Source: Bacteroidales bacterium
GTDB lineage: Bacteria; Bacteroidota; Bacteroidia; Bacteroidales; UBA1715
Length of the DNA stretch: 64,000 nt
Direction of reading: 5' to 3'
Assembly (NCBI GenBank): GCA_017516865.1
Contig: JAFXAU010000026.1
Span: 5,220 to 69,219 of the forward strand
The notes beneath the pieces were generated by a model. That model did no database searches, was not told the DNA's origin, and was given only the letters and a program-made list of their open reading frames with translations. Both the position numbers and the translations under genes were made by a program. Every line of letters begins with the position of its first letter. Position 1 is the stretch's first letter. Below, in pieces: positions 1,863-21,273 of the stretch.

Positions 1863-1900
1863 AACCTATTTTTATAAATCACCCACTGATTTAATAGGTT
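1863..1900 (+). promoter_or_regulatory. long-spacer palindrome AACCTATT-N22-AATAGGTT upstream of the pstC -7 box
   Basis: 8-bp arms are perfect reverse complements, with an inner AAATCA/TGATTT pair. It ends 17 nt upstream of the TAtgTTTG box at 1918-1925. Confidence 0.4.
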
Positions 1901-1928
1901 AATAGAATTTTAATCCGTATGTTTGCAT

Positions 1929-1949
1929 TACCTATTAAAATGATAGGTT
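1929..1949 (+). promoter_or_regulatory. 21-nt palindromic site tACCTA-N9-TAGGTt between the pstC -7 box and ATG
   Basis: tacctattaaaatgataggtt. Member of the AACCTA-N9-TAGGTT family seen at five promoter positions in this window. Confidence 0.45.
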
Positions 1950-1959
1950 GAATTAGAGT

Positions 1960-2847
1960 ATGAATAACTTACGGATAATCAAGGATAAAACGGCAAATGC
2001 GGCTATGCGGACGGTCACCGTCGTGGCACTGCTTTTTGTGTTGGTGATGGGCTGGGGGCTCTATCAGAAATCAGCTCCGATATTAGGCGAAATTCCACTC
2101 TGGAATTTACTGACCGATTCCACATGGCAGCCGTTCAAAAACCAATTCGGTTTTCTTCCGTTTGTGATGGGAACCATTTGGGTGACAATCATTGCCATTG
2201 TAATTTCGTTGCCGTTGTCGCTTTTCACGGCGATTTTCCTTACGGAGTATTCGCGCCGGTGCGTGAAAAAGATAGTGTATCCTGCACTCGACATTTTGGC
2301 TTCGCTGCCGTCGGTCATCTATGGTGTATGGGGCACATTGGTAATCGTACCGTGGATTTCGGACAAACTTGCACCGCATTTTGTTGACTTTTCGGCTGGT
2401 TACACCACATTGGCAGCGGGTATAGTGTTGAGTATTATGGTGTTGCCGTTGCTTGTGAGTCTGTTTGTGGAATTGTTTTCAAGCGTGTCGGTCGATTTGC
2501 GTGACACGGCATACGCATTGGGTTCAACTCGTTGGCAGACAGCCCAAAAGGTTGTTATGCGGAAGTCGTTGCCGGGCATTTTCGCTTCGGTGGTGCTTGC
2601 CGTTTCGCGTGCGTTGGGTGAAACCATTGCCGTGCTGATGGTTTGTGGAAACTTGCCGCAAGTACCGCAGTCGGTGTTCGACGCCTGTTATCCGTTGCCG
2701 GCACTCATTGCCAACAACTACGGCGAAATGCTGTCGTTGCCAATGTACGAGTCGGCACTGATGTTTGCCGCATTGTTGCTTTTTGTGGTGGTTTTGTTGT
2801 TCAATCTCGTTTCACGAATCATTTTGCGGAAAATAGAAGAAAATTAG
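1960..2847 (+). CDS. pstC: phosphate ABC transporter permease PstC
   Basis: 295 aa, multi-TM, with permease EAA-type loop ALGSTRWQTAQKVVMRKSLPGI. First gene in pstC-pstA-pstB order. Confidence 0.9.
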   Translation: MNNLRIIKDKTANAAMRTVTVVALLFVLVMGWGLYQKSAPILGEIPLWNLLTDSTWQPFKNQFGFLPFVMGTIWVTIIAIVISLPLSLFTAIFLTEYSRRCVKKIVYPALDILASLPSVIYGVWGTLVIVPWISDKLAPHFVDFSAGYTTLAAGIVLSIMVLPLLVSLFVELFSSVSVDLRDTAYALGSTRWQTAQKVVMRKSLPGIFASVVLAVSRALGETIAVLMVCGNLPQVPQSVFDACYPLPALIANNYGEMLSLPMYESALMFAALLLFVVVLLFNLVSRIILRKIEEN

Positions 2848-2907
2848 GAGTTAGGAATTATGAGTTGGTGGCTGAGCTTGTCGAAGCCTCGTTTGAAGTC
2901 AAAAAAA

Positions 2908-3756
2908 ATGAAGAAAAGTATTGTTAAAGAGCAGTTTGCACGTTTGTTGATGTATCTTTCGATAGTCATCGTGTTGATTTTGGTTGCGAGCATCATCTGG
3001 ACTATTTTCAGCCGTGGAGCGAAGTGCCTTACGTGGGAGATGGTCACATCGTTGCCGGGTGGCGGATTCTACATTGGGAAGGAGGGCGGCTTTTTGAATG
3101 CCATAGTCGGTTCGCTTTACATTGTGCTTGCATCTACGGCTATCGGGCTGATAATCAGTGTTCCTGTTGTCTTCTTTTTGAATGTGTATCTTAAAACAAA
3201 GTCAAAGTTGGCATACGTGGCGCGGTTGGCGTTCGACGTGCTATTTGGCATTCCGTCAATTGTTTATGGTGCGTTTGCCTTTACGCTGATGATATATTTC
3301 GGGCTCCGCACGTCGCTCTTGGGTGGTATTTTGGTGGAAACATTGCTGATAATTCCAATTCTCATCCGTTCGATGGACGAGGTGGCGAAGAATTTCCCTC
3401 GTGAATTGCTCGAAGCATCGTATTCGTTGGGGGCAACCCGTTGGGAAACTATGGGCGTGGTAATGAGACAGATTGCTCCCGGAATCGCCACGGCCACATT
3501 GTTGTCGGTCGGTCGTTCCATAGGCGACGCAGCTGGCGTGATGTTCACCGCAGGTTTTTCCGACACAATTCCCACGTCGCTCTCGCAACAGGTTGCCACA
3601 TTGCCGTTGTCAATCTTTTTCCAACTGAGCGCACCGCAGATTGAAGTGCAGAACCGAGCGTATGCGGCGGCATTGGTGCTTACGATTATAGTTCTTATTA
3701 TCAGTCTTTTAGGAAGATTTATTACAAACCGTTTTTCAAAACATAACTTACGATGA
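2908..3756 (+). CDS. pstA: phosphate ABC transporter permease PstA
   Basis: Multi-TM with EAA loop SLGATRWETMGVVMRQIAPGI. The ORF opens at 2860, but its first 16 codons (MSWWLSLSKPRLKS) read through an intergenic repeat, so ATG 2908 (MKKSIVKEQF) is preferred. Confidence 0.88.
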   Translation: MKKSIVKEQFARLLMYLSIVIVLILVASIIWTIFSRGAKCLTWEMVTSLPGGGFYIGKEGGFLNAIVGSLYIVLASTAIGLIISVPVVFFLNVYLKTKSKLAYVARLAFDVLFGIPSIVYGAFAFTLMIYFGLRTSLLGGILVETLLIIPILIRSMDEVAKNFPRELLEASYSLGATRWETMGVVMRQIAPGIATATLLSVGRSIGDAAGVMFTAGFSDTIPTSLSQQVATLPLSIFFQLSAPQIEVQNRAYAAALVLTIIVLIISLLGRFITNRFSKHNLR

Positions 3757-4595
3757 AACGTTTTCTTTTACGCAGATTTTTGGCAAACGACAGCAACGAA
3801 CCATTTGTCCCGAACGAGAAATTCCAGCATCCCGAGGTCGCTTCGGAGCTTGTGGTTGACCATTTCAACCTTTCGATTGATGGCTCGCCGATATTGAAAG
3901 ACGTGTCGGTGACGATTCCGGCGAATAAAATCACGTGTATTATCGGACCATCGGGCTGTGGAAAATCGACCTTGCTCAAAAGTTTGAACCGACTGTCGGA
4001 TTCGATTGAGGGCGTAAAAACTTCGGGCGACATACGTCTTGGCGACACCAGCATAGTGAACTGTTCCGATTCTGATTTGGTGGAGTTGCGCCGTCGTATT
4101 GGGCTTGTTCCGCAGCGTCCTACGCCGCTTCCGATGTCGATTTTCGGCAACATTGCCTATGGATGCAAGATTCACGGCGTGGGTGGACGGCGGCAGTTGC
4201 GACGGATTGTCCGTCATTATTTGAAAGTTGTGGGTTTGTGGGACGAGGTGAAAGACCGTCTGCATAGTCCTGCGGTAAAGCTCTCCATTGGTCAGCAGCA
4301 ACGTTTGTGTCTTGCCCGCAGTCTTGCCGTTGAGCCAGAGTTTATCCTTGCCGACGAGGCCACTTCGGCTCTCGACCCCGTTTCGAGCAAGATTGTGGAA
4401 GATTTGTTCGTCAAGTTGAAAGAGCAGTATTCCATAGTAATGGTGACACACACGCTCCGTCAGGCCTTGCGAATAGCCGATTATGTAATTTTCATTTATA
4501 TGGGCGAGGTGATTGAAGTTGGCGACGCACAACAAGTTTTTAAGAATCCACAGCATGAACTCACGCAGAAATATCTGTCGGGAGCGATAAGTTAG
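3753..4595 (+). CDS. pstB: phosphate ABC transporter ATP-binding protein PstB
   Basis: Walker A GPSGCGKST, ABC signature LSIGQQQRL, Walker B ILADEATSALD. ATGA start/stop overlap with pstA. Confidence 0.92.
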   Translation: MKRFLLRRFLANDSNEPFVPNEKFQHPEVASELVVDHFNLSIDGSPILKDVSVTIPANKITCIIGPSGCGKSTLLKSLNRLSDSIEGVKTSGDIRLGDTSIVNCSDSDLVELRRRIGLVPQRPTPLPMSIFGNIAYGCKIHGVGGRRQLRRIVRHYLKVVGLWDEVKDRLHSPAVKLSIGQQQRLCLARSLAVEPEFILADEATSALDPVSSKIVEDLFVKLKEQYSIVMVTHTLRQALRIADYVIFIYMGEVIEVGDAQQVFKNPQHELTQKYLSGAIS

Positions 4596-4652
4596 AATGG
4601 ATGTCACAGCGTGCCGAAACCGCCTTTAATTGAGAATTGACGACTGTTTAGT

Positions 4653-4684: not shown

Positions 4685-4881
4685 TACACAATTGCGGATG
4701 CATTCAATGTGTCCCTACAAATATCCACATTCCCATCCGTAATTTTTTCCTTTTTTTTTCTTACTGCCCCCAATGCACGTCATTATCTCCATATGTAATT
4801 CACAATTTTAAAAATCGGGAATCTCGCGGAATACAGAATAAATGCTATCTTTGGGCAACCAATTTATAAAGAGTAGTAACG

Positions 4882-5365: not shown

Positions 5366-5376
5366 TATACATAATA

Positions 5377-5397
5377 AACCTATTAAAGTAGTAGGCT
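5377..5397 (+). promoter_or_regulatory. 21-nt palindromic site AACCTA-N9-TAGGcT upstream of the racemase-mnmA-nadA promoter
   Basis: aacctattaaagtagtaggct. It ends 15 nt upstream of the TAtcTTTG -7 box at 5413-5420 and lies inside the duplicated RhuM module. Confidence 0.45.
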
Positions 5398-5443
5398 ATT
5401 TCGAAAATAGTTTATCTTTGCACAAGAAAACAATGTTGTGTTG

Positions 5444-6139
5444 ATGAAAAAAATAGGGCTAATCGGTGGTGTAGGACCTGTTTCCACGGTAAATTATTAT
5501 TTGGAACTCAATCGGTTGTATCATAATGATTTCGGTGTGAATGAATATCCTGAAATTGTGATTGACAGTCTGAGTTTGAACAAGGTAACTACGGCTCTTG
5601 CCGATGAACGCTATGATATTGTGTGTGAAATACTTAAAAAGAGTGCGGACATATTGCGGAATGCGGGGGCGGAATGTGTTGCAATTTGTTCAAATACGCC
5701 GCATATTGTTCTAAGTCAAATAGTTGATGAGTTGCCGTTGCCTATTGTGAGCATTGTTGATGCAAATGTGCAGGCAGTGAAAAACGGCGGCTACAAAAAC
5801 GTGTTGGTATTAGGTACGCTTGCTACAATGCAAAGTGGTATGTATCAGTCAGTTCTTGCGGAAAATGGCATTTCGGCGGTTACACCAAGCGTGGAAGACC
5901 AACAAACGATAGCCGACATTATTTTCCCCAATCTCGAAAACGGCATTGTTGACCCCGACGAACGTTTGGAAATGCTTGCTTTAGTTGAGAAATACGTTGC
6001 GTATCAATCAGTTGACGCGGTTTTACTTGCCTGCACGGAACTTCCGCTCATCATAAAACCAGCCGATTTGACTATCCCTGTGATTGATACGGCTCTGGTT
6101 CATGCAAAAGAAATCTATGAATTCGCTGTAAAACAATGA
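5444..6139 (+). CDS. aspartate/glutamate racemase family protein
   Basis: N-terminus KKIGLIGGVGPVST and two Cys-containing active-site regions, AICSNTPH and LLACTELPL. The ORF opens at GTG 5438; ATG 5444 is preferred. Confidence 0.8.
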   Translation: MKKIGLIGGVGPVSTVNYYLELNRLYHNDFGVNEYPEIVIDSLSLNKVTTALADERYDIVCEILKKSADILRNAGAECVAICSNTPHIVLSQIVDELPLPIVSIVDANVQAVKNGGYKNVLVLGTLATMQSGMYQSVLAENGISAVTPSVEDQQTIADIIFPNLENGIVDPDERLEMLALVEKYVAYQSVDAVLLACTELPLIIKPADLTIPVIDTALVHAKEIYEFAVKQ

Positions 6140-7290
6140 TTTACGAGATACAAAGTTTGCCCAAACGGGGCGATGTAGTTTTAGTTGGTTTGTCGGGCGG
6201 CATAGATTCCACGCTGACTGCCGTGATGCTGAAAGAAGCTGGTTGCAAGGTCATAGGCGTTACTATGTCGTTGTGGGACAGCCGTCTCCCGAAAATTGAC
6301 AGCAAAAAAGAATATTGTTTCGACGCAAACGAGTCGATGAGCATTGACGACTGTCGTGCGTTTTGCAAAAAGTATGATATTGAGTATCACGTAGTTGACT
6401 TGCACGAGGAGTACCGAAAAAACGTGTTGGAATATTTCAAGGCGGAGTATCGGGCGGGACGGACGCCGAATCCGTGTATTCGTTGTAATTCCACTATGAA
6501 ATTCGGCACAATGCTGTCGAGCGTGGAAAAATTGGGCGTTGACTACGATTATTTTTGTACGGGACATTATGCGAAAATTGTAAAGCCGACCGAAGGTTTG
6601 TTCGGTACCGAAAACCGTCCGTATATGGTCGCAAGCGCGTCGGACGCTTCGAAAGACCAGTCGTATTTTTTGTATCGCATACCTGGTTCCGTGCTGGAAA
6701 AAGTGCGTTTCCCGTTGGCGGAAATTTCCAAAAAAGAAGTATTTGAATTTGCGAAAAAGAACAACTTGTTTTCTGAAAAATATACTGAAAGTCAAGATTT
6801 TATAGATCCGCAATATTTTGACATTCTGTTTGCCGACAAACCATTTGCCGAAGGCGACATTGTTGATTTGGACGGAAAAGTTTTGGGCCGTCATAAAGGG
6901 ATTGAGCATTACACTATTGGGCAACGGAAAGGACTCGGCGTTGCACTTTCGTATCCTGTCTATGTGCATTCCATTGATGCAGAACGAAATAGAGTAGTGT
7001 TGGCTCCGATTGAGGCGTTGCGTTCGTCATGTTTTATAATCGACGACTGCGTGTGGGCAGGCGGAGTGGAACCGCAGTCGGCTTTCGAAGCCCGTGTAAA
7101 AATTCGGCTTGCGGGAGGTTTGCATAACGCGAAAATCGAAGGAACCAAATCTTCACAACCAGACAATGCCAAATTGTGGAGAATCACGTTCGATGAGCCG
7201 CAAACGGCCGTCACTCCTGGACAGTCGGCGGTGATATACGACGGCGACGTGATTGTGGGCGGAGGAGTGATTGCAAAGGTGGAAAATTGA
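6136..7290 (+). CDS. mnmA: tRNA 2-thiouridine(34) synthase MnmA
   Basis: PP-loop VLVGLSGGIDSTLTA and Cys region NPCIRCN; 384 aa. Overlaps the racemase stop. Confidence 0.88.
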   Translation: MIYEIQSLPKRGDVVLVGLSGGIDSTLTAVMLKEAGCKVIGVTMSLWDSRLPKIDSKKEYCFDANESMSIDDCRAFCKKYDIEYHVVDLHEEYRKNVLEYFKAEYRAGRTPNPCIRCNSTMKFGTMLSSVEKLGVDYDYFCTGHYAKIVKPTEGLFGTENRPYMVASASDASKDQSYFLYRIPGSVLEKVRFPLAEISKKEVFEFAKKNNLFSEKYTESQDFIDPQYFDILFADKPFAEGDIVDLDGKVLGRHKGIEHYTIGQRKGLGVALSYPVYVHSIDAERNRVVLAPIEALRSSCFIIDDCVWAGGVEPQSAFEARVKIRLAGGLHNAKIEGTKSSQPDNAKLWRITFDEPQTAVTPGQSAVIYDGDVIVGGGVIAKVEN

Positions 7291-7305
7291 AATTTACAGA
7301 AAAAT

Positions 7306-8226
7306 ATGTTGATACACGAAATTCAAGCGGAAATACGACGGCTCAAGCGTGAAAAGGGTATTTGCATTTTGGCACACGCATATCAGAGTCACGACATCTG
7401 GGAAGTGGCCGATTATGTGGGCGATTCGTTCGGATTGAGTCAAAAGGCGGCTGAATCCGATGCTGATACGGTTTTAATGTGCGGCGTGCGGTTTATGGCT
7501 GAAACGGTGAAGATTTTGTCGCCGCAAAAACGCGTGATTTTGGCGAATGGCGAGGCGGGCTGCCCTATGGCGGAACAAATTTCGGTGGATTTGTTGCGGA
7601 GTTTAAAAGAAAAATACCCCGACCATACGGTGGTTTCGTACATCAATACAACGATACAATTAAAAACATTGACCGACGTGTGCGTCACTTCGTCGTCGGC
7701 AGTGAAGATTGTGCAAAACATACAAAACGACAAGATTCTGTTCATACCAGATTGTAACTTAGGCAGTTGGGTACAAAAACAAATACCCGAAAAACAATTC
7801 CAGTTTGTTCCCGGCGGTTGTCCCACCCATTTGCTGATTACGCCGAAAAATGTTGAACAGGCACGCCAGAAGCACCCAAACGTATTGGTGCTTGTTCATC
7901 CCGAATGTGCCGAAAAAGTTGTGGAACTTGCTGATTATGTGGGTAGTACCACACAAATAATGGATTTTGCAAAACAAAGTCAGGCAACGGAATTTATCAT
8001 AGGTACGGAAAACAGCATTGTGCAGCATTTGCAGATTGATTGTCCCGAAAAGCGTTTTTACGCGTTGTCGAAAAATTGTGTCTGCCATAATATGAAAATG
8101 ACCACGTTAGGCGATGTGTATGAATGTGTAAGAGGTATCGGTGGCGAAGAAATCACGCTCGATGCCGATACGCTTCGCAATGCCAGACGTAGTATTGACG
8201 AAATGCTCAGGTTGGAAAAGATTTGA
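7306..8226 (+). CDS. nadA: quinolinate synthase NadA
   Basis: 306 aa with ILAHAYQ, VGDS, CGVRFMAETVK and VHPEC motifs typical of NadA. Confidence 0.88.
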   Translation: MLIHEIQAEIRRLKREKGICILAHAYQSHDIWEVADYVGDSFGLSQKAAESDADTVLMCGVRFMAETVKILSPQKRVILANGEAGCPMAEQISVDLLRSLKEKYPDHTVVSYINTTIQLKTLTDVCVTSSSAVKIVQNIQNDKILFIPDCNLGSWVQKQIPEKQFQFVPGGCPTHLLITPKNVEQARQKHPNVLVLVHPECAEKVVELADYVGSTTQIMDFAKQSQATEFIIGTENSIVQHLQIDCPEKRFYALSKNCVCHNMKMTTLGDVYECVRGIGGEEITLDADTLRNARRSIDEMLRLEKI

Positions 8227-8376: not shown

Positions 8377-8565
8377 ATGAGCGAACAGGAGTTAAATTCA
8401 TACCGGCTGACAAGTTTGGAAGAACCAACCGATGAAATGTTGGCTCAGATTATGCACGAGGCAGCCGAAGATGCAAAGCAGAAATCCGAAGAAGCACACA
8501 AACGATTCTTCGCTGAATTGTATGAAATGGCAAAACAAATAACCGCAAAAAATGACGGAGCATAA
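8377..8565 (+). CDS. putative antitoxin partner of the zeta-like toxin
   Basis: 62-aa acidic helical ORF overlapping the downstream P-loop gene by 14 nt, preceded by a TAtaTTTG box. Called from position only; no family recognised. Confidence 0.45.
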   Translation: MSEQELNSYRLTSLEEPTDEMLAQIMHEAAEDAKQKSEEAHKRFFAELYEMAKQITAKNDGA

Positions 8566-12437: not shown

Positions 12438-13349
12438 ATGAAAAATGAAATGGATTCAAGCCCAAAGAGCGAAATAATCTTGTATCAACCTAACGAAACG
12501 GTTTCGTTGGAAGTGCGAATGGAAAGCGAAACCGTATGGTTGAATCGTAACCAAATTGCTATGTTGTTTGGTCGTGACGTAAAAACCATAGGGAAACACA
12601 TTAATAATGCCCTACGTGAAGAGTTGCAAAACATGGCAACTGTCGCAAATTTTGCGACAGTTCAAAACGAAGGCGGACGTGTTGTAAAACGAAGTGTGGA
12701 ATATTACAATCTTGACATGGTTTTGTCTGTAGGTTATCGTGTTAAATCGCCACAGGGTGTATTATTTCGTCAGTGGGCGAACAAAGTTCTAAAAGAATAT
12801 ATGTTGCGCGGATATTCGATAAATCAGCGTTTTGAACGATTGGAACAACGTGTAGCCCAAACAGAAAACAAGATAGATTTCTTCGTCCGTACTTCACTGC
12901 CACCAGTTGAAGGACTGATGCACGAAGGACAGATTTTCGACGCCCGTGTCTGCGTTGAGAATCTTATAAAACAGGCAAAGCGGGAAGTTATAATGATTGA
13001 TGGCTACGTTGACGCTGCAACGTTTGAAATTCTTGACGTTCGGCAGAAAGACGTTTCGGCAACGATTTATACGGAACGGGTTGGAGAATCATTGTTGAGA
13101 ATCAAGGAATTGCACGATTCGCAATATCCCGATAAAACTATAGAATTGAAAAAATATGCCGAGAATTTCCATGACCGTTTTCTCATAATTGACGACGTGG
13201 TCTATCATTTTGGAGCAAGTTTCAAAGATTTGGGCAACCGCCTGTTCGCATTCAACAAAATGGGGTTGGACAAGAATCTGATTCTTTCGGCTGTGAAAGA
13301 AAAATTTGAGAAACCGAAGGTGTTTCGGTATGGTAATCACTACGCATAA
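12438..13349 (+). CDS. RhuM-family DNA-binding/virulence-associated protein (full length)
   Basis: 303 aa. The N-terminus SEIILYQPNETVSLEVR..VWLNRNQIAMLFGRDVKTIGKHINN and YNLDMVLSVGYRVKS are typical of the RhuM family. Own TAtcTTTG box upstream. Confidence 0.75.
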   Translation: MKNEMDSSPKSEIILYQPNETVSLEVRMESETVWLNRNQIAMLFGRDVKTIGKHINNALREELQNMATVANFATVQNEGGRVVKRSVEYYNLDMVLSVGYRVKSPQGVLFRQWANKVLKEYMLRGYSINQRFERLEQRVAQTENKIDFFVRTSLPPVEGLMHEGQIFDARVCVENLIKQAKREVIMIDGYVDAATFEILDVRQKDVSATIYTERVGESLLRIKELHDSQYPDKTIELKKYAENFHDRFLIIDDVVYHFGASFKDLGNRLFAFNKMGLDKNLILSAVKEKFEKPKVFRYGNHYA

Positions 13350-13367
13350 AATCGTATTTTTAATATA

Positions 13368-13388
13368 AACCCACCAAATAGGTAGGTT
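13368..13388 (+). promoter_or_regulatory. 21-nt palindromic site AACCcA-N9-TAGGTT upstream of the cysD promoter
   Basis: aacccaccaaataggtaggtt. It ends 16 nt upstream of the TAcaTTTG -7 box at 13405-13412 and lies inside the duplicated RhuM module. Confidence 0.45.
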
Positions 13389-13432: not shown

Positions 13433-14326
13433 ATGAAAACGCATTTACAAGAACTTGAGGCAGAATCGATTTACATTCTTCGCGAGGTGGCGGCACAGTT
13501 CCAACGACCGGCAATCTTGTTTTCGGGGGGAAAGGACTCGATTGTGGTTACTCATTTGGCTTACAAGGCATTTTATCCTGCAAAGTTGCCGTTCCCGCTC
13601 GTGCATATTGATACGGGACATAATTTTCAGGAAACGCTCGATTATCGTGACGCATTGGTCAAAAAACTTGGTGCCGAACTGATTGTAGGTTCGGTGCAGG
13701 AATCAATCGACACGGGCAGGGTGAAGGAGGAGACTGGCTACAATGCGAGTCGTAACGCGTTGCAAACCACCACATTGCTCGATACTATAGAAAAATACAA
13801 GTTCGATGCCTGCATTGGCGGCGCACGCCGTGACGAGGAAAAAGCCCGTGCCAAGGAACGTATTTTCTCGCACCGTGACGATTTCGGACAATGGAATCCT
13901 AAGAATCAGCGTCCAGAATTGTGGAACATATTCAACGGACGCAAAAATATGGGCGAACATTTCCGCGTGTTCCCCATCAGCAACTGGACCGAAATGGACG
14001 TCTGGCAGTATATTTTACAGGAAAAGATAGAATTGCCGTCGTTGTACTATACGCACAAACGAAAGGTTTTCCAACGCGACGGACAGTGGCTCGCAGCCGA
14101 AGACTGCATCAAACGGAAACCCGACGAGGTTGTGGTTGAAAAAGAAGTCCGTTGCCGCACGATTGGCGATATCACGTGTACGGGGCTGACGCTTTCCACG
14201 GCTCATTCTCTCGAAGATATTGTTGCCGAAATTGCCGCCACACGCGTCACCGAGCGTGGTGGTCGTGCCGACGACAAACGGAGCGAAACAGCAATGGAGG
14301 ACAGAAAAAAATTAGGTTATTTTTAG
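13433..14326 (+). CDS. cysD: sulfate adenylyltransferase subunit 2 CysD
   Basis: 297 aa with PP-loop FSGGKDS. Followed by the GTPase subunit gene. Confidence 0.9.
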   Translation: MKTHLQELEAESIYILREVAAQFQRPAILFSGGKDSIVVTHLAYKAFYPAKLPFPLVHIDTGHNFQETLDYRDALVKKLGAELIVGSVQESIDTGRVKEETGYNASRNALQTTTLLDTIEKYKFDACIGGARRDEEKARAKERIFSHRDDFGQWNPKNQRPELWNIFNGRKNMGEHFRVFPISNWTEMDVWQYILQEKIELPSLYYTHKRKVFQRDGQWLAAEDCIKRKPDEVVVEKEVRCRTIGDITCTGLTLSTAHSLEDIVAEIAATRVTERGGRADDKRSETAMEDRKKLGYF

Positions 14327-14353
14327 TAGAGACGCGATTAATCGCGTCTCTAC
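14326..14353. repeat. 28-nt perfect palindrome GTAGAGACGCGATTAATCGCGTCTCTAC (copy 1)
   Basis: Exact 14+14 palindrome in the cysD-cysN spacer; its first base is the last base of the cysD stop codon. Confidence 0.9.
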
Positions 14354-14359
14354 AATTAA

Positions 14360-15646
14360 ATGAAGAAAAAATTACGAAAAATGAACAACGGATATTTGGA
14401 TATGCAGCTGCTCCGTTTTACAACGGCTGGCAGTGTTGACGATGGTAAAAGCACGTTGATTGGGCGTTTGCTCTACGACAGCAAATCTATTTTCGAAGAC
14501 CAGATGGAAGCGGTTGAAACTGCCTCGAAAAGTCGTGGAAACGAGGAAGTTAACCTTGCATTGCTCACCGACGGACTCCGTGCCGAACGTGAGCAGGGAA
14601 TCACCATCGATGTGGCGTACCGCTATTTTGCCACGCCAAAGCGTAAATTCATCATTGCCGACACGCCGGGGCATATCGAGTACACGAGAAATATGGTTAC
14701 GGGAGCATCTACAGCCGATTTGGCGGTGATTCTGGTCGATGCCCGACATGGCATTATGGAGCAGACTATCCGACACTCGTATGTCGCTGCGTTGCTGGCT
14801 ATCAAGCAGATAGTGGTGTGCGTGAACAAAATGGATTTAGTTGATTTTTCGCAAGAAGTTTTCGATAAAATTGTGGGTGACTACAAGCAGATGTCGGCTC
14901 ATTTACCCATTGGCAAAGTCGATTTTATTCCGATTTCTGCAAAAATGGGCGACAACGTGGTGAATCAGTCGGAAAATATGTCGTGGTATAAGGGGAAACC
15001 GCTTCTTGAATTTTTGGAAACAGTTGACCTTCAACTTGATACGGAAAATAAATTTAGAATGGCGGTGCAATATGTCATTCGACCAATATCGGACAAATTT
15101 GCTGATTTTCGAGGATACGCAGGTCGTGTTGCGAGTGGAAAAATCACAGTGGGAGAGAAGATTGCCGTTTTGCCGTCGGGACAGAAATCCGAAGTCGCTT
15201 CCTTATGGTTGGCCGACAAGGAGTTGACCGAAGCGTCGGCTGGCGATTCCGTTACCATTTGTTTGAAAGACGACATTGACATCAGCCGCGGCGATGTGCT
15301 TTGTACCGACAATGGACAAGTTCCCGAAGTTGGACAGGCAGTGTCGATGAACATTTGCTGGTTCCGCGAAACACCGTTGCAATTGGGCAAACGCTACATC
15401 ATCCGTCATGCGACACAGGAAGTGGTTGGAATGTTTAAGGCAATCGACTACAAAATCGATATCAATTCACAAGATAAGATAACTGGCGTCAATCAGTTGA
15501 CAATGAATGATATAGCATACGTGCAGCTGAAAACTGCCAGCCCGCTGGTTTTCGAACCATATCATACCAATAAGGTTATGGGCAGCGTGATAGTTGTTGA
15601 CCCCGACACGAACGACACGCTGGGGGCAGGAATGATTGAGAATTAA
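14360..15646 (+). CDS. cysN: sulfate adenylyltransferase subunit 1 CysN (GTPase), no fused APS kinase
   Basis: G1 GSVDDGKST, G3 DTPGH, G4 NKMD. The start is uncertain (ATG 14360, 14381 or 14402). Confidence 0.9.
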   Translation: MKKKLRKMNNGYLDMQLLRFTTAGSVDDGKSTLIGRLLYDSKSIFEDQMEAVETASKSRGNEEVNLALLTDGLRAEREQGITIDVAYRYFATPKRKFIIADTPGHIEYTRNMVTGASTADLAVILVDARHGIMEQTIRHSYVAALLAIKQIVVCVNKMDLVDFSQEVFDKIVGDYKQMSAHLPIGKVDFIPISAKMGDNVVNQSENMSWYKGKPLLEFLETVDLQLDTENKFRMAVQYVIRPISDKFADFRGYAGRVASGKITVGEKIAVLPSGQKSEVASLWLADKELTEASAGDSVTICLKDDIDISRGDVLCTDNGQVPEVGQAVSMNICWFRETPLQLGKRYIIRHATQEVVGMFKAIDYKIDINSQDKITGVNQLTMNDIAYVQLKTASPLVFEPYHTNKVMGSVIVVDPDTNDTLGAGMIEN

Positions 15647-15667
15647 GAAGTATGAATTAGAAATTAT

Positions 15668-15695
15668 GTAGAGACGCGATTAATCGCGTCTCTAC
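15668..15695. repeat. 28-nt perfect palindrome (copy 2)
   Basis: Identical to copy 1; lies in the cysN-cysH spacer. Confidence 0.9.
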
Positions 15696-15713
15696 GGTAA
15701 ATAATTAAAAGTC

Positions 15714-16409
15714 ATGGATATACAATCATTAAATGCGCAATTTGCCCATTCATCGGCAGAAGAGGTCTTGGCGTTTTTTCTTAATGAATACAAAGGTGCA
15801 ATCGCCCTTTCGTCAAGTTTGAGTTACGAAGACCAGGTGTTGACAGATATGATTTGTGAGATAGACAAGTCAACGAGGATTTTCACGCTCGACACGGGTC
15901 GTTGTTTTCCTGAGACGTATTCGCTCATTGAGCGCACCAACGAACGATACGGCATAAAACTGGAAGTCTATTTTCCTGATTATCAGAATGTTCAAAAAAT
16001 GGTTGCCGAACATGGCGTGAATTTGTTTTACGGCAGTGTGGAACTGCGTCATTTGTGTTGTAATGTGCGTAAAATAGAGCCTTTGCAACGGGCACTCAAA
16101 GGTCTGAAAGTTTGGATTTGCGGTCTTCGCCGTGAACAGAGCGTTACTCGAAAGGATATGCAGCTTGTGGAGTGGGATGCCAACAACAACCTTGTGAAGC
16201 TTAATCCGCTTATTCACTGGACCGAAGACGAAGTGAAAGCGTATGTGAAACAACATAGCGTGCCATATAACAAGTTGCACGACAAAGGATTTCCGTCAAT
16301 CGGCTGCCAGCCATGTACCCGTGCCGTTGAACCGGGCGAGGACATCCGCTCCGGCCGCTGGTGGTGGGAGAATCCCGAACATCGGGAGTGCGGGTTGCAC
16401 AGGAGGTGA
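15714..16409 (+). CDS. cysH: adenylyl-/phosphoadenylyl-sulfate reductase CysH (Fe-S APS-reductase type)
   Basis: C-terminal redox motif ECGLH. Extra cysteine pairs, CC (HLCCNVRK) and CxxC (GCQPCT), as in cluster-containing APS reductases. Confidence 0.88.
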   Translation: MDIQSLNAQFAHSSAEEVLAFFLNEYKGAIALSSSLSYEDQVLTDMICEIDKSTRIFTLDTGRCFPETYSLIERTNERYGIKLEVYFPDYQNVQKMVAEHGVNLFYGSVELRHLCCNVRKIEPLQRALKGLKVWICGLRREQSVTRKDMQLVEWDANNNLVKLNPLIHWTEDEVKAYVKQHSVPYNKLHDKGFPSIGCQPCTRAVEPGEDIRSGRWWWENPEHRECGLHRR

Positions 16410-16450
16410 TACCATACTTTTCCTGTGGTATAAAATCTTTGATATACTTG

Positions 16451-17308
16451 ATGGTAAGAGACTATTCAACATACGGCCCTGCATATCGTAATTTCAAGGT
16501 TAGGGATGGTGTGTATGTCCCTGAGCCTGATGTGGATTTTTCAGGTGAAAATCCGTTTACAAGGATGGCCCCCATACGCGGTAAAAATAAGAATATCAAA
16601 TTTGATGAGACGTACACCTATCTTGACAAATCACTGAAATTCAAAATATTACATTTTGCCATTTATCTGTTTGCTTGGACTGTGGCGTTCCCGATAAATC
16701 GAATCAGGTATGGTCTTAAGATTGAGGGCAGAGAGAAAATCCGTCGCAACCGCAAACTCATCGCCAACGGCGTGATGACTGTCTGCAACCATGTTCACCG
16801 TTGGGATATGATATGCGTTATGCAGGCAATGCGCTTCCGCAAGGCATGGATTCCTATGTATTCGCAGCCCTTCAACGGCAAAGACGGCTTCGTAATGAAA
16901 GCCGTTGGCGGCATTGCAATTCCTGATGAGTACAGCGGTCTTGCAAAGTTTGCCGGTGCTTTGGACGAACTGCATAAAGCCAAGCAGTGGATACACATTT
17001 TCCCGGAAAGTTGCAGTTGGAAATTCTACGCGCCTCTTCGGCCTTTCAAAATAGGAGCTTTTAATATGGCTTACAGATATTCGCTTCCTGTAATGCCGAT
17101 GGTGATTTCTTTCAGGCCTCGCACGGGCTGGCGCAGGTTTATCAGCAAAAACGATCCATTGCTTACCATTCATGTGGGCGACCCGATTGTTCCCAATCCT
17201 AAAGCGTCGCGAAGGGATGAACCCGCGCGAATGCGTGACATTGCACACAAGACGATGCTTGACATGGCGGGCATTGTCTCTAACCCTTGGCCGTCAGGCA
17301 TAGATTGA
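16451..17308 (+). CDS. glsA: lysophospholipid/1-acyl-glycerol-3-phosphate-type O-acyltransferase (glsA-like)
   Basis: HX4D motif NHVHRWD. The ORF opens at 16361, but its first 30 codons overlap cysH in another frame, so ATG 16451 is preferred. Adjacent to an N-acyltransferase gene, as in the Bacteroidales glycine-lipid locus. Confidence 0.65.
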   Translation: MVRDYSTYGPAYRNFKVRDGVYVPEPDVDFSGENPFTRMAPIRGKNKNIKFDETYTYLDKSLKFKILHFAIYLFAWTVAFPINRIRYGLKIEGREKIRRNRKLIANGVMTVCNHVHRWDMICVMQAMRFRKAWIPMYSQPFNGKDGFVMKAVGGIAIPDEYSGLAKFAGALDELHKAKQWIHIFPESCSWKFYAPLRPFKIGAFNMAYRYSLPVMPMVISFRPRTGWRRFISKNDPLLTIHVGDPIVPNPKASRRDEPARMRDIAHKTMLDMAGIVSNPWPSGID

Positions 17309-17320
17309 AACTTTTCCAGT

Positions 17321-18370
17321 ATGAATGCTATTATTGATCCCGTACCAGTTGAACTGATTAAGGCGGAACTCACAAAATCGAAGAAACTGCAAGACACGAA
17401 CAAGGGGCACAACGAGCTCTATATTGTTACATGGCAGGATTCCCCAAATGTTGTTACTGAAATAGGCCGGCTGCGTGAAGTTGCTTTCCGCCAGGCAGGC
17501 GGTTCCACAGGCAACGCCGTTGACCTTGATGAGTACGACAAGATGGAAAACCCGTATAAGCAACTGATTGTCTGGGACCCAGACAACGAGGTGATTATCG
17601 GCGGTTACCGTTTTCTTTTGGGGGCGGATGCCGCGTTTGACGAGAACGGTCAGCCGATTTTGGCAAGCTCGCACCAGTTCCGCTTCTCGCAGAAGTTTAT
17701 CGACAACTATCTGCCATACGCCATTGAACTCGGACGCAATTTTGTCGCACCTGAGTACCAGAGTTCCCGAAACGGTGCAAATTCCATATTTGCATTTGAC
17801 AATTTATGGGACGGTCTCGTGGCCATTATTATGAAGAATCCCAAACTGTTGTATTTCTTCGGAAAGATTACCATATACCCGTCATACGACCATATTTCAA
17901 GAGATTTGATTTACCACTTTCTTTGGAAGCATTTCGGTGATAAAGAAGAACTTATCCGCCCTTGGGACGACCTTTCGATAATGCCAGATTCCGATTCCGA
18001 CCTGATGAACCTGATAGTGAATAAAGATGATCTTGTGGAAGATTTCAAGTTGCTGAAGGCTGCTGTCAGGATGCGGGGAGTGAACGTTCCGCCGAATGTT
18101 ACCGCATATATTTCAGCGTCTTCGCGGATGATGATGTTCGGCACGGCTGTTAACCGGCTGATGCACAATATTGAGGACACGGGAATACTTATTCCTTTCG
18201 ATGCAGTCTATCGTGAAAAGATGTGGCGTCATATAGGTGCGTATTTTAGGTCGGAACAGCGCAACAAGGCGGATCTTGCTGATTATGAAATTGAAAATCA
18301 AATGATTGAGCATTGGCTTAATCTGCGAAGGCGTAGAATTAGACGCCTGCTTAGAAAGTTGGGCAAGTAA
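17321..18370 (+). CDS. glsB: hemolysin/OlsB-like GNAT N-acyltransferase (glsB-like, N-acyl amino-acid lipid synthase)
   Basis: 349 aa. The N-terminal half (VTEIGRLREVAFRQAGGSTGN..DEYD) resembles the N-acyltransferases that make glycine/ornithine lipids. Confidence 0.6.
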   Translation: MNAIIDPVPVELIKAELTKSKKLQDTNKGHNELYIVTWQDSPNVVTEIGRLREVAFRQAGGSTGNAVDLDEYDKMENPYKQLIVWDPDNEVIIGGYRFLLGADAAFDENGQPILASSHQFRFSQKFIDNYLPYAIELGRNFVAPEYQSSRNGANSIFAFDNLWDGLVAIIMKNPKLLYFFGKITIYPSYDHISRDLIYHFLWKHFGDKEELIRPWDDLSIMPDSDSDLMNLIVNKDDLVEDFKLLKAAVRMRGVNVPPNVTAYISASSRMMMFGTAVNRLMHNIEDTGILIPFDAVYREKMWRHIGAYFRSEQRNKADLADYEIENQMIEHWLNLRRRRIRRLLRKLGK

Positions 18371-19536: not shown

Positions 19537-19548
19537 AATTTAATGTTT

Positions 19549-20634: not shown

Positions 20635-20637
20635 CGT

Positions 20638-20667
20638 GATTGATAGTTAGTGCATTCACTATCAATC
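20638..20667 (-). promoter_or_regulatory. perfect 10-bp inverted repeat abutting the MTase start codon
   Basis: GATTGATAGT-N10-ACTATCAATC, starting 3 nt from the ATG (20632-20634). Could be an operator or a 5'-UTR hairpin. Confidence 0.4.
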
Positions 20668-20989
20668 TTTATCGGCAACAAGAAAGGTGCGAGCCTTTCC
20701 ATCATATTCACGAGGAGCGTCGCTTGAACCCCGCTGCACTGTTAGAATAGCCCACACCTTATCAGCGTGAGCATTAACTCAAAATACAGTGCAACGGAAT
20801 AAACGCTTCCGTAAATGATATTATCCGATAATTCTAATCTTCAGTTTGCGACGCTTTTGATTCGAATATGAATAATAGCTAATGCTGTATGTTAAACTTT
20901 ATATTTTTTTCTAATTCATACTTTTTGTTTTGTATTATTTGGTTTCAAAAGTATTAAAAAAGTTTGGGAATGACAAAAAGAATCAGAAA

Positions 20990-21109
20990 ATGTCGTTGAG
21001 GAATTACAAATACGTGGCAGGGCAAAAGGTACAAAATAAGGCATCCTTGCCAACTGGTACGTATTTCGTGCATTATGGAACGCAAGTGAAAAAGGTTGTG
21101 GTGCGGTAA
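20990..21109 (+). pseudogene. stump of a T9SS cargo gene (C-terminal sorting domain only)
   Basis: 39 codons ..NYKYVAGQKVQNKASLPTGTYFVHYGTQVKKVVVR-stop, which match Por-secretion-tail endings. No upstream coding body. Confidence 0.6.
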
Positions 21110-21198
21110 TGCAGGTTGTATATGTTGTTTATGCTAAAAAAATGATATTACGCACAAAAACGTATTCCCATTAGTTCAAAATCGTAATTTTTGAAAAT

Positions 21199-21219
21199 AA
21201 CCTATCTGATTGGTAGGTT
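21199..21219 (+). promoter_or_regulatory. 21-nt palindromic site AACCTA-N9-TAGGTT upstream of the porin-pstS promoter
   Basis: aacctatctgattggtaggtt. It ends 16 nt upstream of the TAtgTTTG -7 box at 21236-21243. Confidence 0.5.
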
Positions 21220-21252
21220 ATGTTAAAATTTCCTGTATGTTTGTACTCGAAT

Positions 21253-21273
21253 AACCTATCAAAATGGTAGGTT
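21253..21273 (+). promoter_or_regulatory. second AACCTA-N9-TAGGTT site between the -7 box and the porin ATG
   Basis: aacctatcaaaatggtaggtt. Same two-site layout as the pstC promoter. Confidence 0.5.

What the first reader, a model, noticed from the sequence alone, without database searches (positions are those of the whole stretch)
1863..21273. Recurrent AACCTA-N9-TAGGTT palindrome at a fixed offset from -7 boxes of four + strand operons
Seen: five 21-nt sites fit the pattern.
- tACCTAttaaaatgaTAGGTt at 1929-1949.
- AACCTAttaaagtagTAGGcT at 5377-5397.
- AACCcAccaaataggTAGGTT at 13368-13388.
- AACCTAtctgattggTAGGTT at 21199-21219.
- AACCTAtcaaaatggTAGGTT at 21253-21273.
- A long-spacer version lies at 1863-1900.

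Position relative to promoters:
- The upstream sites end 15-17 nt before TAnnTTTG boxes at 1918, 5413, 13405 and 21236. That centres them roughly 40 nt upstream of the expected TSS.
- Both phosphate promoters (pstCAB and porin-pstS) carry a second copy between the -7 box and the ATG.
- I found no copy outside promoter regions in this window.

Established knowledge: dimeric CRP/FNR-type activators work from palindromes centred near -41.5. Classical PhoB boxes are direct repeats, so this is not a canonical Pho box.

Inference: this could be the binding site of an uncharacterised dimeric regulator or a portable promoter cassette. The downstream copies could act as operators or 5'-UTR hairpins.

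Caveat: the 5377 and 13368 copies lie inside the duplicated RhuM module, so they are not independent occurrences.
Basis: partly seen in the sequence, partly recalled or inferred. Interest (0 to 1): 0.6.

Follow-up and report, generated by a model that had tools for sequence, protein, structure and literature searches.

The report
Sulfur-regulon operator of an Rrf2 regulator
The repeated palindrome is real and is most likely the DNA docking site of an iron-sulfur (Rrf2/IscR-CymR type) regulator that switches a sulfur-assimilation gene cluster in rumen Bacteroidales. The "phosphate" transporter genes it controls look like a mis-annotated sulfate uptake system.

Summary
Six strong sites lie at four + strand promoters: 1880-1900, 1929-1949, 5377-5397, 13368-13388, 21199-21219 and 21253-21273. 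There are none elsewhere in the 64 kb.

From 42 distinct sites in the window and relatives, the full consensus is a 23-bp 11-1-11 palindrome, TAACCTAYCAA-W-TTGRTAGGTTA.

Sites hold two fixed positions. One ends 14-17 nt before the TAnnTTTG box; the other starts 9 nt (3 nt at pstC) after it.

Evidence that this is an Rrf2-family operator:
- In relatives, nadA, cysDNH, the porin, the pstS-like gene, pstCAB, racX and mnmA form one cluster, with a site before each transcription unit.
- In some relatives an Rrf2 regulator with three conserved cysteines sits inside that cluster.
- Orthologous rrf2 genes lie in cysK-rrf2 or metY-cysK-rrf2 operons, each preceded by the only strong site in 10-16 kb.
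- A motif-only metagenome scan hit rrf2, cysK, metY, iscS, cysDNH and mnmA.
- In Firmicute-type hits the site embeds a TTGACA -35 box, which points to repression.

The PstS-like protein lacks the Ser/Thr residues found at the aligned positions of solved phosphate-binding proteins and always sits with cysDNH or a probable cysE (serine acetyltransferase-like) gene, so it is probably a sulfate importer.

Verdict: a new member of a known kind. It is neither a Pho box nor an RNA hairpin.

The parts
1856..1873 (+). Conserved upstream block GTACAAAAACCTATTTTT of the pstC-like promoter. Function unknown: UP-like element or a second factor's site.
   Evidence: 3 hits in the window against 0.25 expected, each 6-7 nt upstream of a distal operator. 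Also seen in relatives.
1880..1900 (.). Distal operator of the pstCAB-like operon (CACCCActgatttaaTAGGTT). It ends 17 nt before the -7 box.
   Evidence: PWM 25.1 bits; offset; orthologous site in L001, L002, L004, L007, L009, L016 and L017.
1918..1925 (+). Bacteroidetes-type -7 box, TATGTTTG.
   Evidence: Sequence; consensus TAnnTTTG is established knowledge.
1929..1949 (.). Proximal operator between the -7 box and the pstC-like ATG.
   Evidence: PWM 27.4 bits; conserved in relatives, where it starts 9 nt after the box.
1960..4595 (+). pstC-, pstA- and pstB-like ABC permease and ATPase genes, probably the membrane part of a sulfate importer.
   Evidence: NCBIfam: PstC 254.6 bits (cut-off 196); PstA 189 bits and PstB 312 bits, both just below cut-off. 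Always linked to cysDNH in relatives.
5377..5397 (.). Operator of the racX-mnmA-nadA operon. It ends 15 nt before the box at 5413-5420.
   Evidence: PWM 25.1 bits; offset; gene identities.
5438..8226 (+). racX (Asp/Glu/cysteate-type racemase), mnmA (tRNA 2-thiouridine synthase) and nadA ([4Fe-4S] quinolinate synthase).
   Evidence: The same genes sit in the cluster in L002, L010-L013, L026 and L142.
13344..13361 (+). Conserved upstream block GCATAAAATCGTATTTTT of the cysD promoter.
13368..13388 (.). Operator of the cysD-cysN-cysH(-glsA-glsB) operon. It ends 16 nt before the box at 13405-13412.
   Evidence: PWM 24.7 bits. Orthologous near-consensus sites before cysD in L006, L008 and L010-L013.
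13433..18370 (+). cysD, cysN, APS/PAPS reductase, an O-acyltransferase and the glycine N-acyltransferase GlsB.
21174..21191 (+). Conserved upstream block GTTCAAAATCGTAATTTT of the porin promoter.
   Evidence: alignment A3.
21199..21219 (.). Distal operator of the porin-pstS-like operon. It ends 16 nt before the box at 21236-21243.
   Evidence: CCTA/TAGG are invariant in 11 orthologous promoters while the flanks diverge.
21253..21273 (.). Proximal, near-consensus operator. It starts 9 nt after the -7 box and lies 20 nt before the ATG.
   Evidence: PWM 33.7 bits. ATAACCTA...TAGGTT is invariant in 11 orthologues.
21294..23400 (+). OprO/P-family anion porin and a PstS-like (PBP_like_2) binding protein with an altered anion pocket.

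Best explanation
**Identity.** The palindrome is the operator of a dimeric winged-helix regulator of the Rrf2 family. The regulator is an IscR/CymR-like protein with three conserved cysteines, so it probably carries an Fe-S cluster. Its gene lies outside this window.

**Regulon.** It controls a sulfur-assimilation / Fe-S-linked set of genes:
- sulfate uptake (OprP-like porin, PstS-like binding protein, PstCAB-like permease);
- sulfate activation and reduction (cysD, cysN, cysH);
- sulfur- or Fe-S-dependent enzymes (mnmA, nadA);
- in relatives also cysK, metY and rrf2 itself.

**Mechanism, most likely repression.** One dimer binds a site covering roughly -48 to -28, over the -33 region. At the two transporter promoters a second dimer binds a higher-affinity site just downstream of the -7 box, around the start site. 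Together they block RNA polymerase when sulfur or Fe-S supply is adequate. Loss or change of the sensing cluster or cofactor would release the operators when sulfur is limiting.

**Shown:** motif, positions, conservation, gene linkage and linkage to rrf2.
**Inferred:** actual binding, the direction of regulation, the signal sensed and the transporter's substrate.
For: 1. **Specific sites.** Six sites score 24.7 bits or more, only at four promoters; the best shuffle scores 20.0.
2. **Operator architecture.** The 23-bp 11-1-11 dyad matches the size of an Rrf2 operator; NsrR has a 23-bp consensus (PMC9338935). [quoted passage not shown]
3. **Phylogenetic footprint.** In 11 orthologous porin promoters (porin identity down to about 70%) the invariant columns cluster in the two sites and the -7 box.
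4. **One cluster in relatives.** The regulated genes form a single cluster with a site before each transcription unit. L011-L013 read: cysK, site, nadA-rrf2, site, Cys-rich lipoprotein, site, GNAT, site, cysDNH, site, porin-pstS-pstCAB-racX-mnmA. The regulator there matches Pfam Rrf2 at 1.5e-36.
5. **Autoregulation pattern.** Orthologous rrf2 genes (72-73% identical) lie in cysK-rrf2 and metY-cysK-rrf2 operons. Each is preceded by the only site above 12 bits in 10-16 kb, ending 15-17 nt before a -7 box.
6. **Motif-only metagenome scan.** Among 120 loci, genes found within 4 kb of the site were rrf2 (14 loci), iscS/nifS (11), cysK (10), metY (10), cysH (4), cysDN (3) and mnmA (3).
7. **Cluster ligands.** Three cysteines (C-x7-C-x5-C) are conserved in site-linked Rrf2 proteins.
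8. **Repression.**
   - Proximal sites lie downstream of the -7 box.
   - In Firmicute-type hits the operator reads TAACCTA-TTGACA-..-TAGGTTA, with a -10-like hexamer 17 nt after TTGACA.
   - In C. perfringens the rrf2-iscS-iscU-trmU operon is derepressed under cysteine limitation (PMC2940859).
   - C. acetobutylicum Rrf2 proteins are predicted to repress cysK, cysDN and a cystine ABC transporter (PMC3828012).
Against: - No rrf2 gene was found in the 64-kb window (tblastn), so the cognate regulator of this genome is inferred from relatives.
- No binding or expression data exist for this lineage.
- The regulator falls below the NCBIfam equivalog cut-offs for both IscR (113-119 bits against 207.55) and CymR (88-95 against 195).
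- The inner specificity positions of the motif (CCTAY) differ from IscR type 2 (CCxYA).
- All single-site promoters place the site in one very tight register centred near -38/-40. That is what a class II activator would need, so activation from the distal site is not excluded.
- About a third or more of the exact-pattern metagenome hits belong to two unrelated transposase-associated palindromes or are unexplained. The bare pattern is therefore not specific outside this context.
- Rikenellaceae carry the same transporter-cysDNH operon with a paralogous Rrf2 (30% identity) and a different palindrome.
Confidence: 0.8

Rival explanations
1. The distal site is a class II-type activator site. The same Rrf2 protein (as IscR does at suf) or another dimeric factor contacts RNA polymerase from about -40 and switches the operons on under sulfur limitation. 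The proximal copies would act as separate operators.
For: - The register of distal sites is very tight: 14-17 nt before the -7 box in 36 contexts.
- No TTTG -33 element is visible at these promoters (sequence).
- All single-site promoters use this position.
- E. coli IscR activates suf from a type 2 site (PMC4055776).
Against: - The strongest sites at the two transporter promoters lie downstream of the -7 box, where binding can only hinder transcription.
- In Firmicute-type promoters the operator is centred about 8 nt closer to the start site and covers the -35 hexamer itself.
- Experimentally characterised or predicted relatives act as repressors.
Confidence: 0.17
2. It is a phosphate-regulon operator: a non-canonical Pho box or the site of another phosphate-responsive regulator controlling pstCAB and porin-pstS.
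For: - The genes are annotated as Pst-like. PstC passes the TIGR02138 cut-off, and public sources name the binding protein PstS.
- The porin belongs to the OprO/P family.
Against: - The site is a palindrome, not 11-bp direct repeats.
- The same site precedes cysD, cysK, metY, nadA, mnmA, iscS and rrf2.
- No PhoB, PhoR or PhoU gene appears in any locus table.
- The binding protein scores 135 bits against a cut-off of 206.6 for TIGR02136.
- It has AFA, GAG and CGA where solved phosphate binders have S/T-rich motifs.
- The transporter is co-operonic with cysDNH in Alistipes and other lineages.
Confidence: 0.03
3. The palindromes act as RNA (or DNA) hairpins: 5'-UTR stabilisers, attenuators or processing sites.
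For: - The proximal copies would lie at the 5' end of the mRNA and fold at -6 to -10.5 kcal/mol.
- In L011-L013 a copy lies between cysH and the porin ATG with no recognisable -7 box.
Against: - The distal copies lie upstream of the -7 box and would not be transcribed from these promoters.
- The arms are conserved in sequence rather than in pairing. Covariation is no better than column shuffles (166 of 500 reach the observed score) and 14% of cells are unpaired.
- There is no Rfam match.
- The same sequence is kept between Bacteroidales and Firmicute-type contigs.
Confidence: 0.05
4. It is only a dispersed repeat or a duplicated promoter cassette (for example carried with RhuM modules) with no dedicated regulator.
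For: - Three promoters share an extra 18-nt block and the same spacing.
- RhuM cassettes end just upstream of two sites.
Against: - The sites lie outside the RhuM duplication.
- They are conserved at orthologous promoters in genomes without RhuM there.
- They occur without the block at cysK, metY, nadA and rrf2 promoters.
- They are linked to rrf2 genes far more often than chance would allow.
Confidence: 0.03

Closest known systems
IscR (E. coli) and clostridial or Thermincola IscR-like Rrf2 regulators with their type 2 operators
   Same: - Rrf2 fold; the best solved match is 4CIC, an Rrf2-family regulator, at E 3e-26.
- Three conserved cysteines in the cluster-binding region.
- A dyad operator with the W4-CC-N13-GG-W4 frame.
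- The regulon includes Fe-S and thiolation genes (iscS, mnmA/trmU, nadA), as in the C. perfringens rrf2-iscSU-trmU operon.
   Different: - Below the IscR equivalog cut-off.
- Cysteine spacing is C-x7-C-x5-C, against C92/C98/C104 in E. coli IscR.
- The inner motif bases are CCTAY...RTAGG, not CCxYA...TRxGG.
- The regulon here is dominated by sulfate uptake and assimilation rather than isc/suf genes.
- The promoter context is the Bacteroidetes -33/-7 type.
CymR (Bacillus subtilis, Staphylococcus aureus), master repressor of cysteine metabolism
   Same: - Rrf2 family repressor.
- Regulon of cysK, sulfur-source uptake and assimilation genes.
- The regulator gene is adjacent to cysK, as with C. acetobutylicum CAC2236-cysK and as seen in L028-L035.
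   Different: - Below the CymR equivalog cut-off: 88-95 bits against 195.
- Most members here keep three cysteines, which suggests an Fe-S cluster. From my own knowledge, not tested here, CymR lacks them and uses CysK plus O-acetylserine as its signal.
NsrR / RsrR operators
   Same: A roughly 23-bp, nearly palindromic operator bound by one Rrf2 dimer.
   Different: The half-site sequence and the regulon are different.
PhoB Pho box
   Same: It sits where a -35-type element would be, at promoters of Pst-like genes.
   Different: - An inverted repeat, not a direct one.
- No Pho genes are linked.
- The regulon is sulfur-related.
PstSCAB phosphate transporter with OprO/P porin
   Same: Homologous components in the same gene order.
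   Different: - The binding protein has invariant SGAFALYP, AGGAGKG and TRSDACGAA where solved phosphate binders have GSTS/GSDT, GSS and SGT.
- There is no phoU.
- The transporter is co-operonic with cysDNH.
- It is probably a sulfate importer.

Membership tests
Rrf2-family operator (IscR / CymR / NsrR kind) | A dyad-symmetric site of about 23-29 bp suited to one winged-helix dimer | tested here: met
   An 11-1-11 palindrome, TAACCTAYCAA-W-TTGRTAGGTTA, from 42 distinct sites. Size reference: the NsrR 23-bp consensus.
Rrf2-family operator (IscR / CymR / NsrR kind) | A cognate Rrf2 gene linked to the sites, and a site upstream of its own operon | tested here: met
   Met in relatives: L011-L013, L028-L035, and 14 of 120 motif-only metagenome loci. 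Not met inside the window itself; tblastn found no rrf2.
Rrf2-family operator (IscR / CymR / NsrR kind) | The regulator physically binds the site | not testable with these tools
   Needs EMSA, DAP-seq or ChIP.
Rrf2-family operator (IscR / CymR / NsrR kind) | A regulon of sulfur, cysteine or Fe-S metabolism genes | tested here: met
   cysDNH, cysK, metY, iscS/nifS, mnmA, nadA, radical-SAM genes and a cystine-type binding protein flank the sites.
[quoted passage not shown] | The frame WWWWCC-N13-GGWWWW | tested here: met
   TTAACC-N13-GGTTAA compared with the motif quoted in PMC4055776.
[quoted passage not shown] | Inner bases CCxYA...TRxGG | tested here: not met
   Here they are CCTAY...RTAGG.
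IscR equivalog (TIGR02010) | Score above the curated cut-off of 207.55 bits | tested here: not met
   113-119 bits for L011 Rrf2, P0019 and P0014.
IscR equivalog (TIGR02010) | Three conserved cluster-ligand cysteines | tested here: met
   C-x7-C-x5-C is conserved in 10 of 12 aligned site-linked or orthologous Rrf2 proteins. Two lack them.
CymR equivalog (NF047409) | Score above the curated cut-off of 195 bits | tested here: not met
   88-95 bits.
PhoB Pho box | Two direct repeats with 11-bp periodicity, and linkage to phoBR/phoU | tested here: not met
   The sites are inverted repeats. No PhoU or PhoB family appears in the locus gene tables.
CRP/FNR class II activator site | A 5-N6-5 palindrome (TGTGA-N6-TCACA kind) centred at -41.5 and bound by a CRP/FNR protein | tested here: not met
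   The motif is 11-1-11 with different half-sites. The position is roughly similar (centre about -38 to -40, inferred from the -7 box). No CRP/FNR gene is linked; the linked regulator is Rrf2.
Canonical PstS phosphate-binding protein | Score above the TIGR02136 or TIGR00975 cut-offs | tested here: not met
   135.1 bits against 206.6, and 66.7 against 205.
Canonical PstS phosphate-binding protein | Ser/Thr-rich anion-binding motifs (GSTS/GSDT, GSS, SGT) | tested here: not met
   AFA, GAG and CGA stand at the aligned positions against 4GD5, 4Q8R and 4PQJ. They are invariant in 116-119 of 120 homologues.
Cis-regulatory RNA hairpin | Pairing maintained by compensatory changes, or a match to a known RNA family | tested here: not met
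   The covariation score of 0.167 is reached by 166 of 500 shuffles. No Rfam hit at the sites.

The most novel reading that the evidence does not exclude
A whole subfamily of 'PstS/PstCAB plus OprO/P porin' systems in Bacteroidales (rumen clades, Alistipes, Rikenellaceae) is not a phosphate transporter. It would be a Pst-derived sulfate (or thiosulfate) importer that feeds CysDN-CysH and is repressed by Fe-S-type Rrf2 regulators through lineage-specific palindromes. Public annotations of these genes as phosphate transport, and metabolic models built on them, would then be wrong.
Probability: 0.55. Interest if true: 0.6.

Novelty: new member of a known kind. Interest (0 to 1): 0.45.

Why it matters
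- It gives a concrete, testable operator sequence and regulon for sulfur assimilation in uncultured rumen and gut Bacteroidales. I found no description of such a regulon in the paper library.
- It shows that essentially the same operator is used with Bacteroidetes-type (-33/-7) and Firmicute-type (-35/-10) promoters.
- It flags a probable systematic mis-annotation. A conserved Pst-like ABC system with an anion porin, co-operonic with cysDNH, is currently labelled a phosphate transporter. This affects how phosphate and sulfur cycling are read from gut and rumen metagenomes.

Tried and rejected
- **Pho-box literature**. Nothing relevant to Bacteroidetes.
- **Pho-box reading.** Rejected on gene content and motif symmetry.
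- **Long-spacer site at 1863-1900.** Rejected in favour of a normally spaced degenerate site plus a separate upstream block.
- **RhuM-borne repeat.** Rejected; the sites lie outside the duplication and are conserved without RhuM.
- **RNA hairpin.** Rfam, folding and covariation give no support.
- **Regulator inside the window.** tblastn with the L011 Rrf2 and CysK proteins found nothing.
- **Same operator in Alistipes / Rikenellaceae loci** (L156-L161). No PWM hit of 10 bits or more in L156-L158, nor of 12 bits or more in L159-L161. Instead there is a paralogous Rrf2 and a different palindrome, CCTAATCTACA-N9-TGTAGATTAGG.
- **Exact-pattern metagenome scan.** It also pulled in two unrelated transposase-associated palindromes (TAACCTATCTAWTAGATAGGTTA and TAACCTACCTWWWWGGTAGGTTA), a site upstream of rex in gut Firmicutes, and scattered phage-like hits. 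The pattern alone is not diagnostic.
- **Papers on a Bacteroidetes Rrf2 cysteine regulon or a Pst-like sulfate transporter.** Nothing found. This shows only absence from that library.

Full report
**Observation**

AACCTA-N9-TAGGTT with up to two mismatches gives 7 hits against 1.66 expected, and no shuffle in 100 reaches 7.

I built a symmetrised weight matrix from 42 distinct sites in the window and its relatives. It scores six window sites at 24.7-33.7 bits:
- 1880-1900 and 1929-1949;
- 5377-5397;
- 13368-13388;
- 21199-21219 and 21253-21273.

The best score in 100 composition-preserving shuffles was 20.0 bits, and the next real hit is 10.8 bits. Nothing comparable lies in the remaining 43 kb.

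The 'long-spacer' copy at 1863-1900 is really a normally spaced site with a degenerate left arm (CACCCA, like AACCCA at cysD). The AACCTA at 1863 belongs to another conserved block. The spacer is not free: the consensus is the 23-bp palindrome TAACCTAYCAA-W-TTGRTAGGTTA.

**Genes served**

| Site(s) | Downstream genes |
|---|---|
| 1880-1900, 1929-1949 | pstC-, pstA- and pstB-like genes (1960-4595) |
| 5377-5397 | racX-mnmA-nadA (5438-8226) |
| 13368-13388 | cysD-cysN-APS/PAPS reductase, then an acyltransferase and glsB (13433-18370) |
| 21199-21219, 21253-21273 | OprO/P-family porin and a PstS-like binding protein (21294-23400) |

**Source and relatives**

The porin protein retrieved 26 related loci, all from uncultured Bacteroidales, mostly from ruminant or horse gut; the 27th was a weak match (37% identity, E 9e-6) in a Phycisphaerales MAG. 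L001, a yak-reticulum MAG, is nearly identical to the window but arranged differently.

In these relatives nadA, cysDNH, glsAB, porin, pstS-like, pstCAB-like, racX and mnmA form one cluster in varying orders. A site precedes each transcription unit. This already argues against a phosphate regulon.

**Promoter geometry**

Across 68 distinct site contexts in 466 kb:
- 36 have a TAnnTTTG box starting 14-17 nt after the 21-nt core, against 0.2% of random positions;
- 21 have a box ending 9 nt (19 cases) or 3 nt (2 cases) before the core.

The single-site promoters examined (cysD, racX, nadA, cysK, metY) use the upstream position. The two transporter promoters add a second, nearer-consensus site after the box.

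An alignment of 11 orthologous porin promoters shows the invariant columns concentrated in both sites and the -7 box, while the flanks drift.

Three window promoters (pstC, cysD, porin) also share an 18-nt block, GTAYAAAAWCSTATTTTT, 6-7 nt upstream of the distal site. It gives 3 hits against 0.25 expected. Its role is unexplained.

**The regulator**

In L011-L013 the cluster reads, in order:
- cysK
- site
- nadA-rrf2
- site
- a Cys-rich lipoprotein on the minus strand
- site
- a GNAT gene on the minus strand
- site
- cysDNH
- site
- porin-pstS-pstCAB-racX-mnmA

That is five intergenic sites in 6 kb (four in L012) around a 145-aa Rrf2-family gene, which matches Pfam Rrf2 at 1.5e-36.

Orthologues of that protein at 72-73% identity lie in cysK-rrf2 operons (L028-L031, from a 'Salinivirgaceae' MAG, the same label as the window's relatives) and in metY-cysK-rrf2-methylthiotransferase operons (L032-L035). 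In each of these 10-16 kb loci the matrix finds exactly one site above 12 bits. It lies just upstream of that operon and again ends 15-17 nt before a -7 box.

The window itself contains no rrf2 gene, so in this genome the regulator must be encoded elsewhere.

**Independent test by motif alone**

I scanned public metagenome contigs for TAACCTAYYN5RRTAGGTTA, which returned 120 loci. Genes found within 4 kb of the site:

| Gene | Loci |
|---|---|
| rrf2 | 14 |
| iscS/nifS | 11 |
| cysK | 10 |
| metY | 10 |
| cysH | 4 |
| cysDN | 3 |
| mnmA | 3 |
| radical-SAM genes | 3 |
| amino-acid binding protein | 3 |
| this porin | 3 |

Rrf2 genes are only a handful per genome, so 14 of 120 is far above what adjacency by chance would give. 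That baseline is my own estimate.

The scan also showed the limits of the bare pattern:
- at least 22 hits flank one of two unrelated transposase families, each with its own distinct spacer, and further spacer-identical copies lie at contig ends;
- 5 hits lie upstream of rex;
- some are phage-like or unexplained.

**Kind of regulator**

The protein is Rrf2 superfamily. It falls below the curated cut-offs for IscR (113-119 bits against 207.55) and CymR (88-95 against 195). The best solved relative is 4CIC, followed by CymR and IscR structures.

Ten of twelve aligned site-linked or orthologous proteins keep three cysteines (C-x7-C-x5-C) in the region where IscR ligates its cluster (IscR ligands C92/C98/C104 quoted). 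I therefore infer an Fe-S-sensing Rrf2 protein. That is not shown.

[quoted passage not shown] It has the 23-bp size of the NsrR operator.

**Direction of regulation**

I favour repression, for these reasons:
- The best sites at the transporter promoters lie downstream of the -7 box.
- In L011-L013 a site persists between cysH and the porin ATG without any -7 box. This fits a roadblock or a relic operator.
- In Firmicute-type metagenome hits the operator reads TAACCTA-TTGACA-nn-RTAGGTTA, with a -10-like hexamer 17 nt after TTGACA. It therefore covers the -35 element, about 8 nt closer to the start site than in Bacteroidales. A conserved activation geometry would not shift like this; occlusion of the -35/-33 region would.
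- The C. perfringens rrf2-iscS-iscU-trmU operon is derepressed under cysteine limitation.
- C. acetobutylicum Rrf2 proteins are predicted repressors of cysK, cysDN and a cystine transporter.

The very tight register of distal sites keeps class II-type activation alive as a rival, at about 0.17.

**RNA rival**

- The palindromes fold, as any palindrome does, at -5 to -12 kcal/mol.
- The arms vary independently. The covariation score of 0.167 is matched by 166 of 500 column shuffles, and 14% of cells do not pair. One caveat: the CCTA/TAGG core was fixed by how the sites were collected.
- No Rfam family matches.
- Distal copies lie upstream of the promoter.

**The 'phosphate' genes**

- PstC passes its equivalog cut-off. 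PstA and PstB fall just below theirs.
- The binding protein scores 135 bits against a cut-off of 206.6 for the PstS family.
- Aligned to solved phosphate-binding proteins (4GD5, 4Q8R, 4PQJ), it has GAFAL for GSTSV/GSDTL, GGAGKG for GSSAG/GSSTA, and RSDACGA for REDGSGT/RNSVSGT. The Ser/Thr residues at these positions are gone and a cysteine appears.
- These motifs are invariant in 116-119 of 120 homologues down to 66% identity, including Alistipes and Rikenellaceae.

Five further loci carrying this subfamily were examined:

| Locus | Arrangement |
|---|---|
| L157, L158 (Alistipes; L158 lies on a 3.6-Mb contig) | rrf2, divergently transcribed from porin-SBP-permease-permease-ATPase-cysD-cysN-cysH |
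| L160 | the same arrangement, with an rrf2 gene upstream on the same strand |
| L161 | SBP-permeases-ATPase-cysDNH-radical SAM-porin |
| L159 | porin-SBP-permeases-ATPase, followed by a hexapeptide transferase (probably CysE) |

No PhoU appears anywhere in these loci. The inference is a Pst-derived sulfate importer, with probability about 0.55-0.6.

The Rikenellaceae loci use a paralogous Rrf2 (30% identity) and a different palindrome, CCTAATCTACA-N9-TGTAGATTAGG. The theme recurs, but the operator is lineage-specific.

**Novelty and verdict**

The kind is known: an Rrf2 regulator with a palindromic operator controlling a cysteine / Fe-S regulon. Clostridial counterparts have been predicted before.

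I found no description of this regulon, operator or transporter reassignment for Bacteroidetes in the searchable library. That shows absence from that library only.

I rate it a new member of a known kind, with moderate interest. The idea of a dimeric regulator is right. The phosphate framing and the activator analogy are not the best reading.

Noticed in passing
window 14326-14353, 15668-15695, 22372-22399, 40077-40104: A perfect GC-rich 28-nt palindrome, GTAGAGACGCGATTAATCGCGTCTCTAC, occurs four times (three exact copies, one with 1 mismatch; 0 expected). Three copies lie in intergenic gaps inside the sulfur operons: cysD/cysN, cysN/cysH and porin/pstS-like. It looks like a REP-like or intra-operon hairpin element.
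   Followed up: partly
window 1856-1873, 13344-13361, 21174-21191: A conserved 18-nt block, GTAYAAAAWCSTATTTTT, lies 6-7 nt upstream of the distal operator at three promoters, and also in relatives. It is absent at the racX, cysK and metY promoters. It could be an UP-like element, a second factor's site or a trace of promoter duplication.
   Followed up: partly
window 4804-5366 and 12359-13337; also L002, L004, L005, L007, L142: RhuM/Bro-N gene cassettes (one truncated, one full length, 80-92% identical, each with its own -7 box) end 11 and 31 nt before operator sites. RhuM genes also recur between operons of this cluster in several relatives. This may reflect a preferred insertion spot.
   Followed up: partly
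window 22423-23400; P0121-P0240: A PstS-like binding-protein subfamily carries invariant SGAFALYP, AGGAGKG and TRSDACGAA motifs in place of the Ser/Thr-rich motifs of solved phosphate-binding proteins. It is annotated publicly as a phosphate-binding protein.
   Followed up: yes
L158:8854-8884; L160, about 7900-7925: Alistipes / Rikenellaceae versions of the porin-transporter-cysDNH operon sit next to a paralogous Rrf2 gene (30% identical) and carry a different palindrome, CCTAATCTACA-N9-TGTAGATTAGG, near the -7 box.
   Followed up: partly
L011:2017-2280 (minus strand), also L012 and L013: An 87-aa predicted lipoprotein with about 20 cysteines (CCNC..., CGCC..., ACCK...) is transcribed from a promoter that carries an operator site. 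It may be a cysteine-rich sulfur or metal storage or sensing protein.
   Followed up: no
L036-L155 (for example L055:3963, L068:3969): Two unrelated palindromes fit the same outer pattern. TAACCTATCTAWTAGATAGGTTA lies about 150 nt from a 350-aa transposase-like gene in low-GC sediment contigs. TAACCTACCTWWWWGGTAGGTTA lies 11 nt before a 433-aa transposase-like gene. They are probably IS-element ends.
   Followed up: partly
L043, L069, L094, L095, L140: TAACCTATCACTAGGATAGGTTA lies 65 nt upstream of a rex (redox repressor) gene and next to a nifS-like gene in human-gut contigs. This may be another target of the same operator family in Firmicutes.
   Followed up: no
window 18442-20634 (minus strand): A restriction-modification pair (an EcoRI-type adenine methyltransferase plus a GmrSD/HNH endonuclease) is inserted between the cysDNH-glsAB operon and the porin promoter. 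Zeta-toxin and BspA-LRR genes lie at 8552-12194. Together these explain why the sulfur cluster is split in this genome.
   Followed up: no
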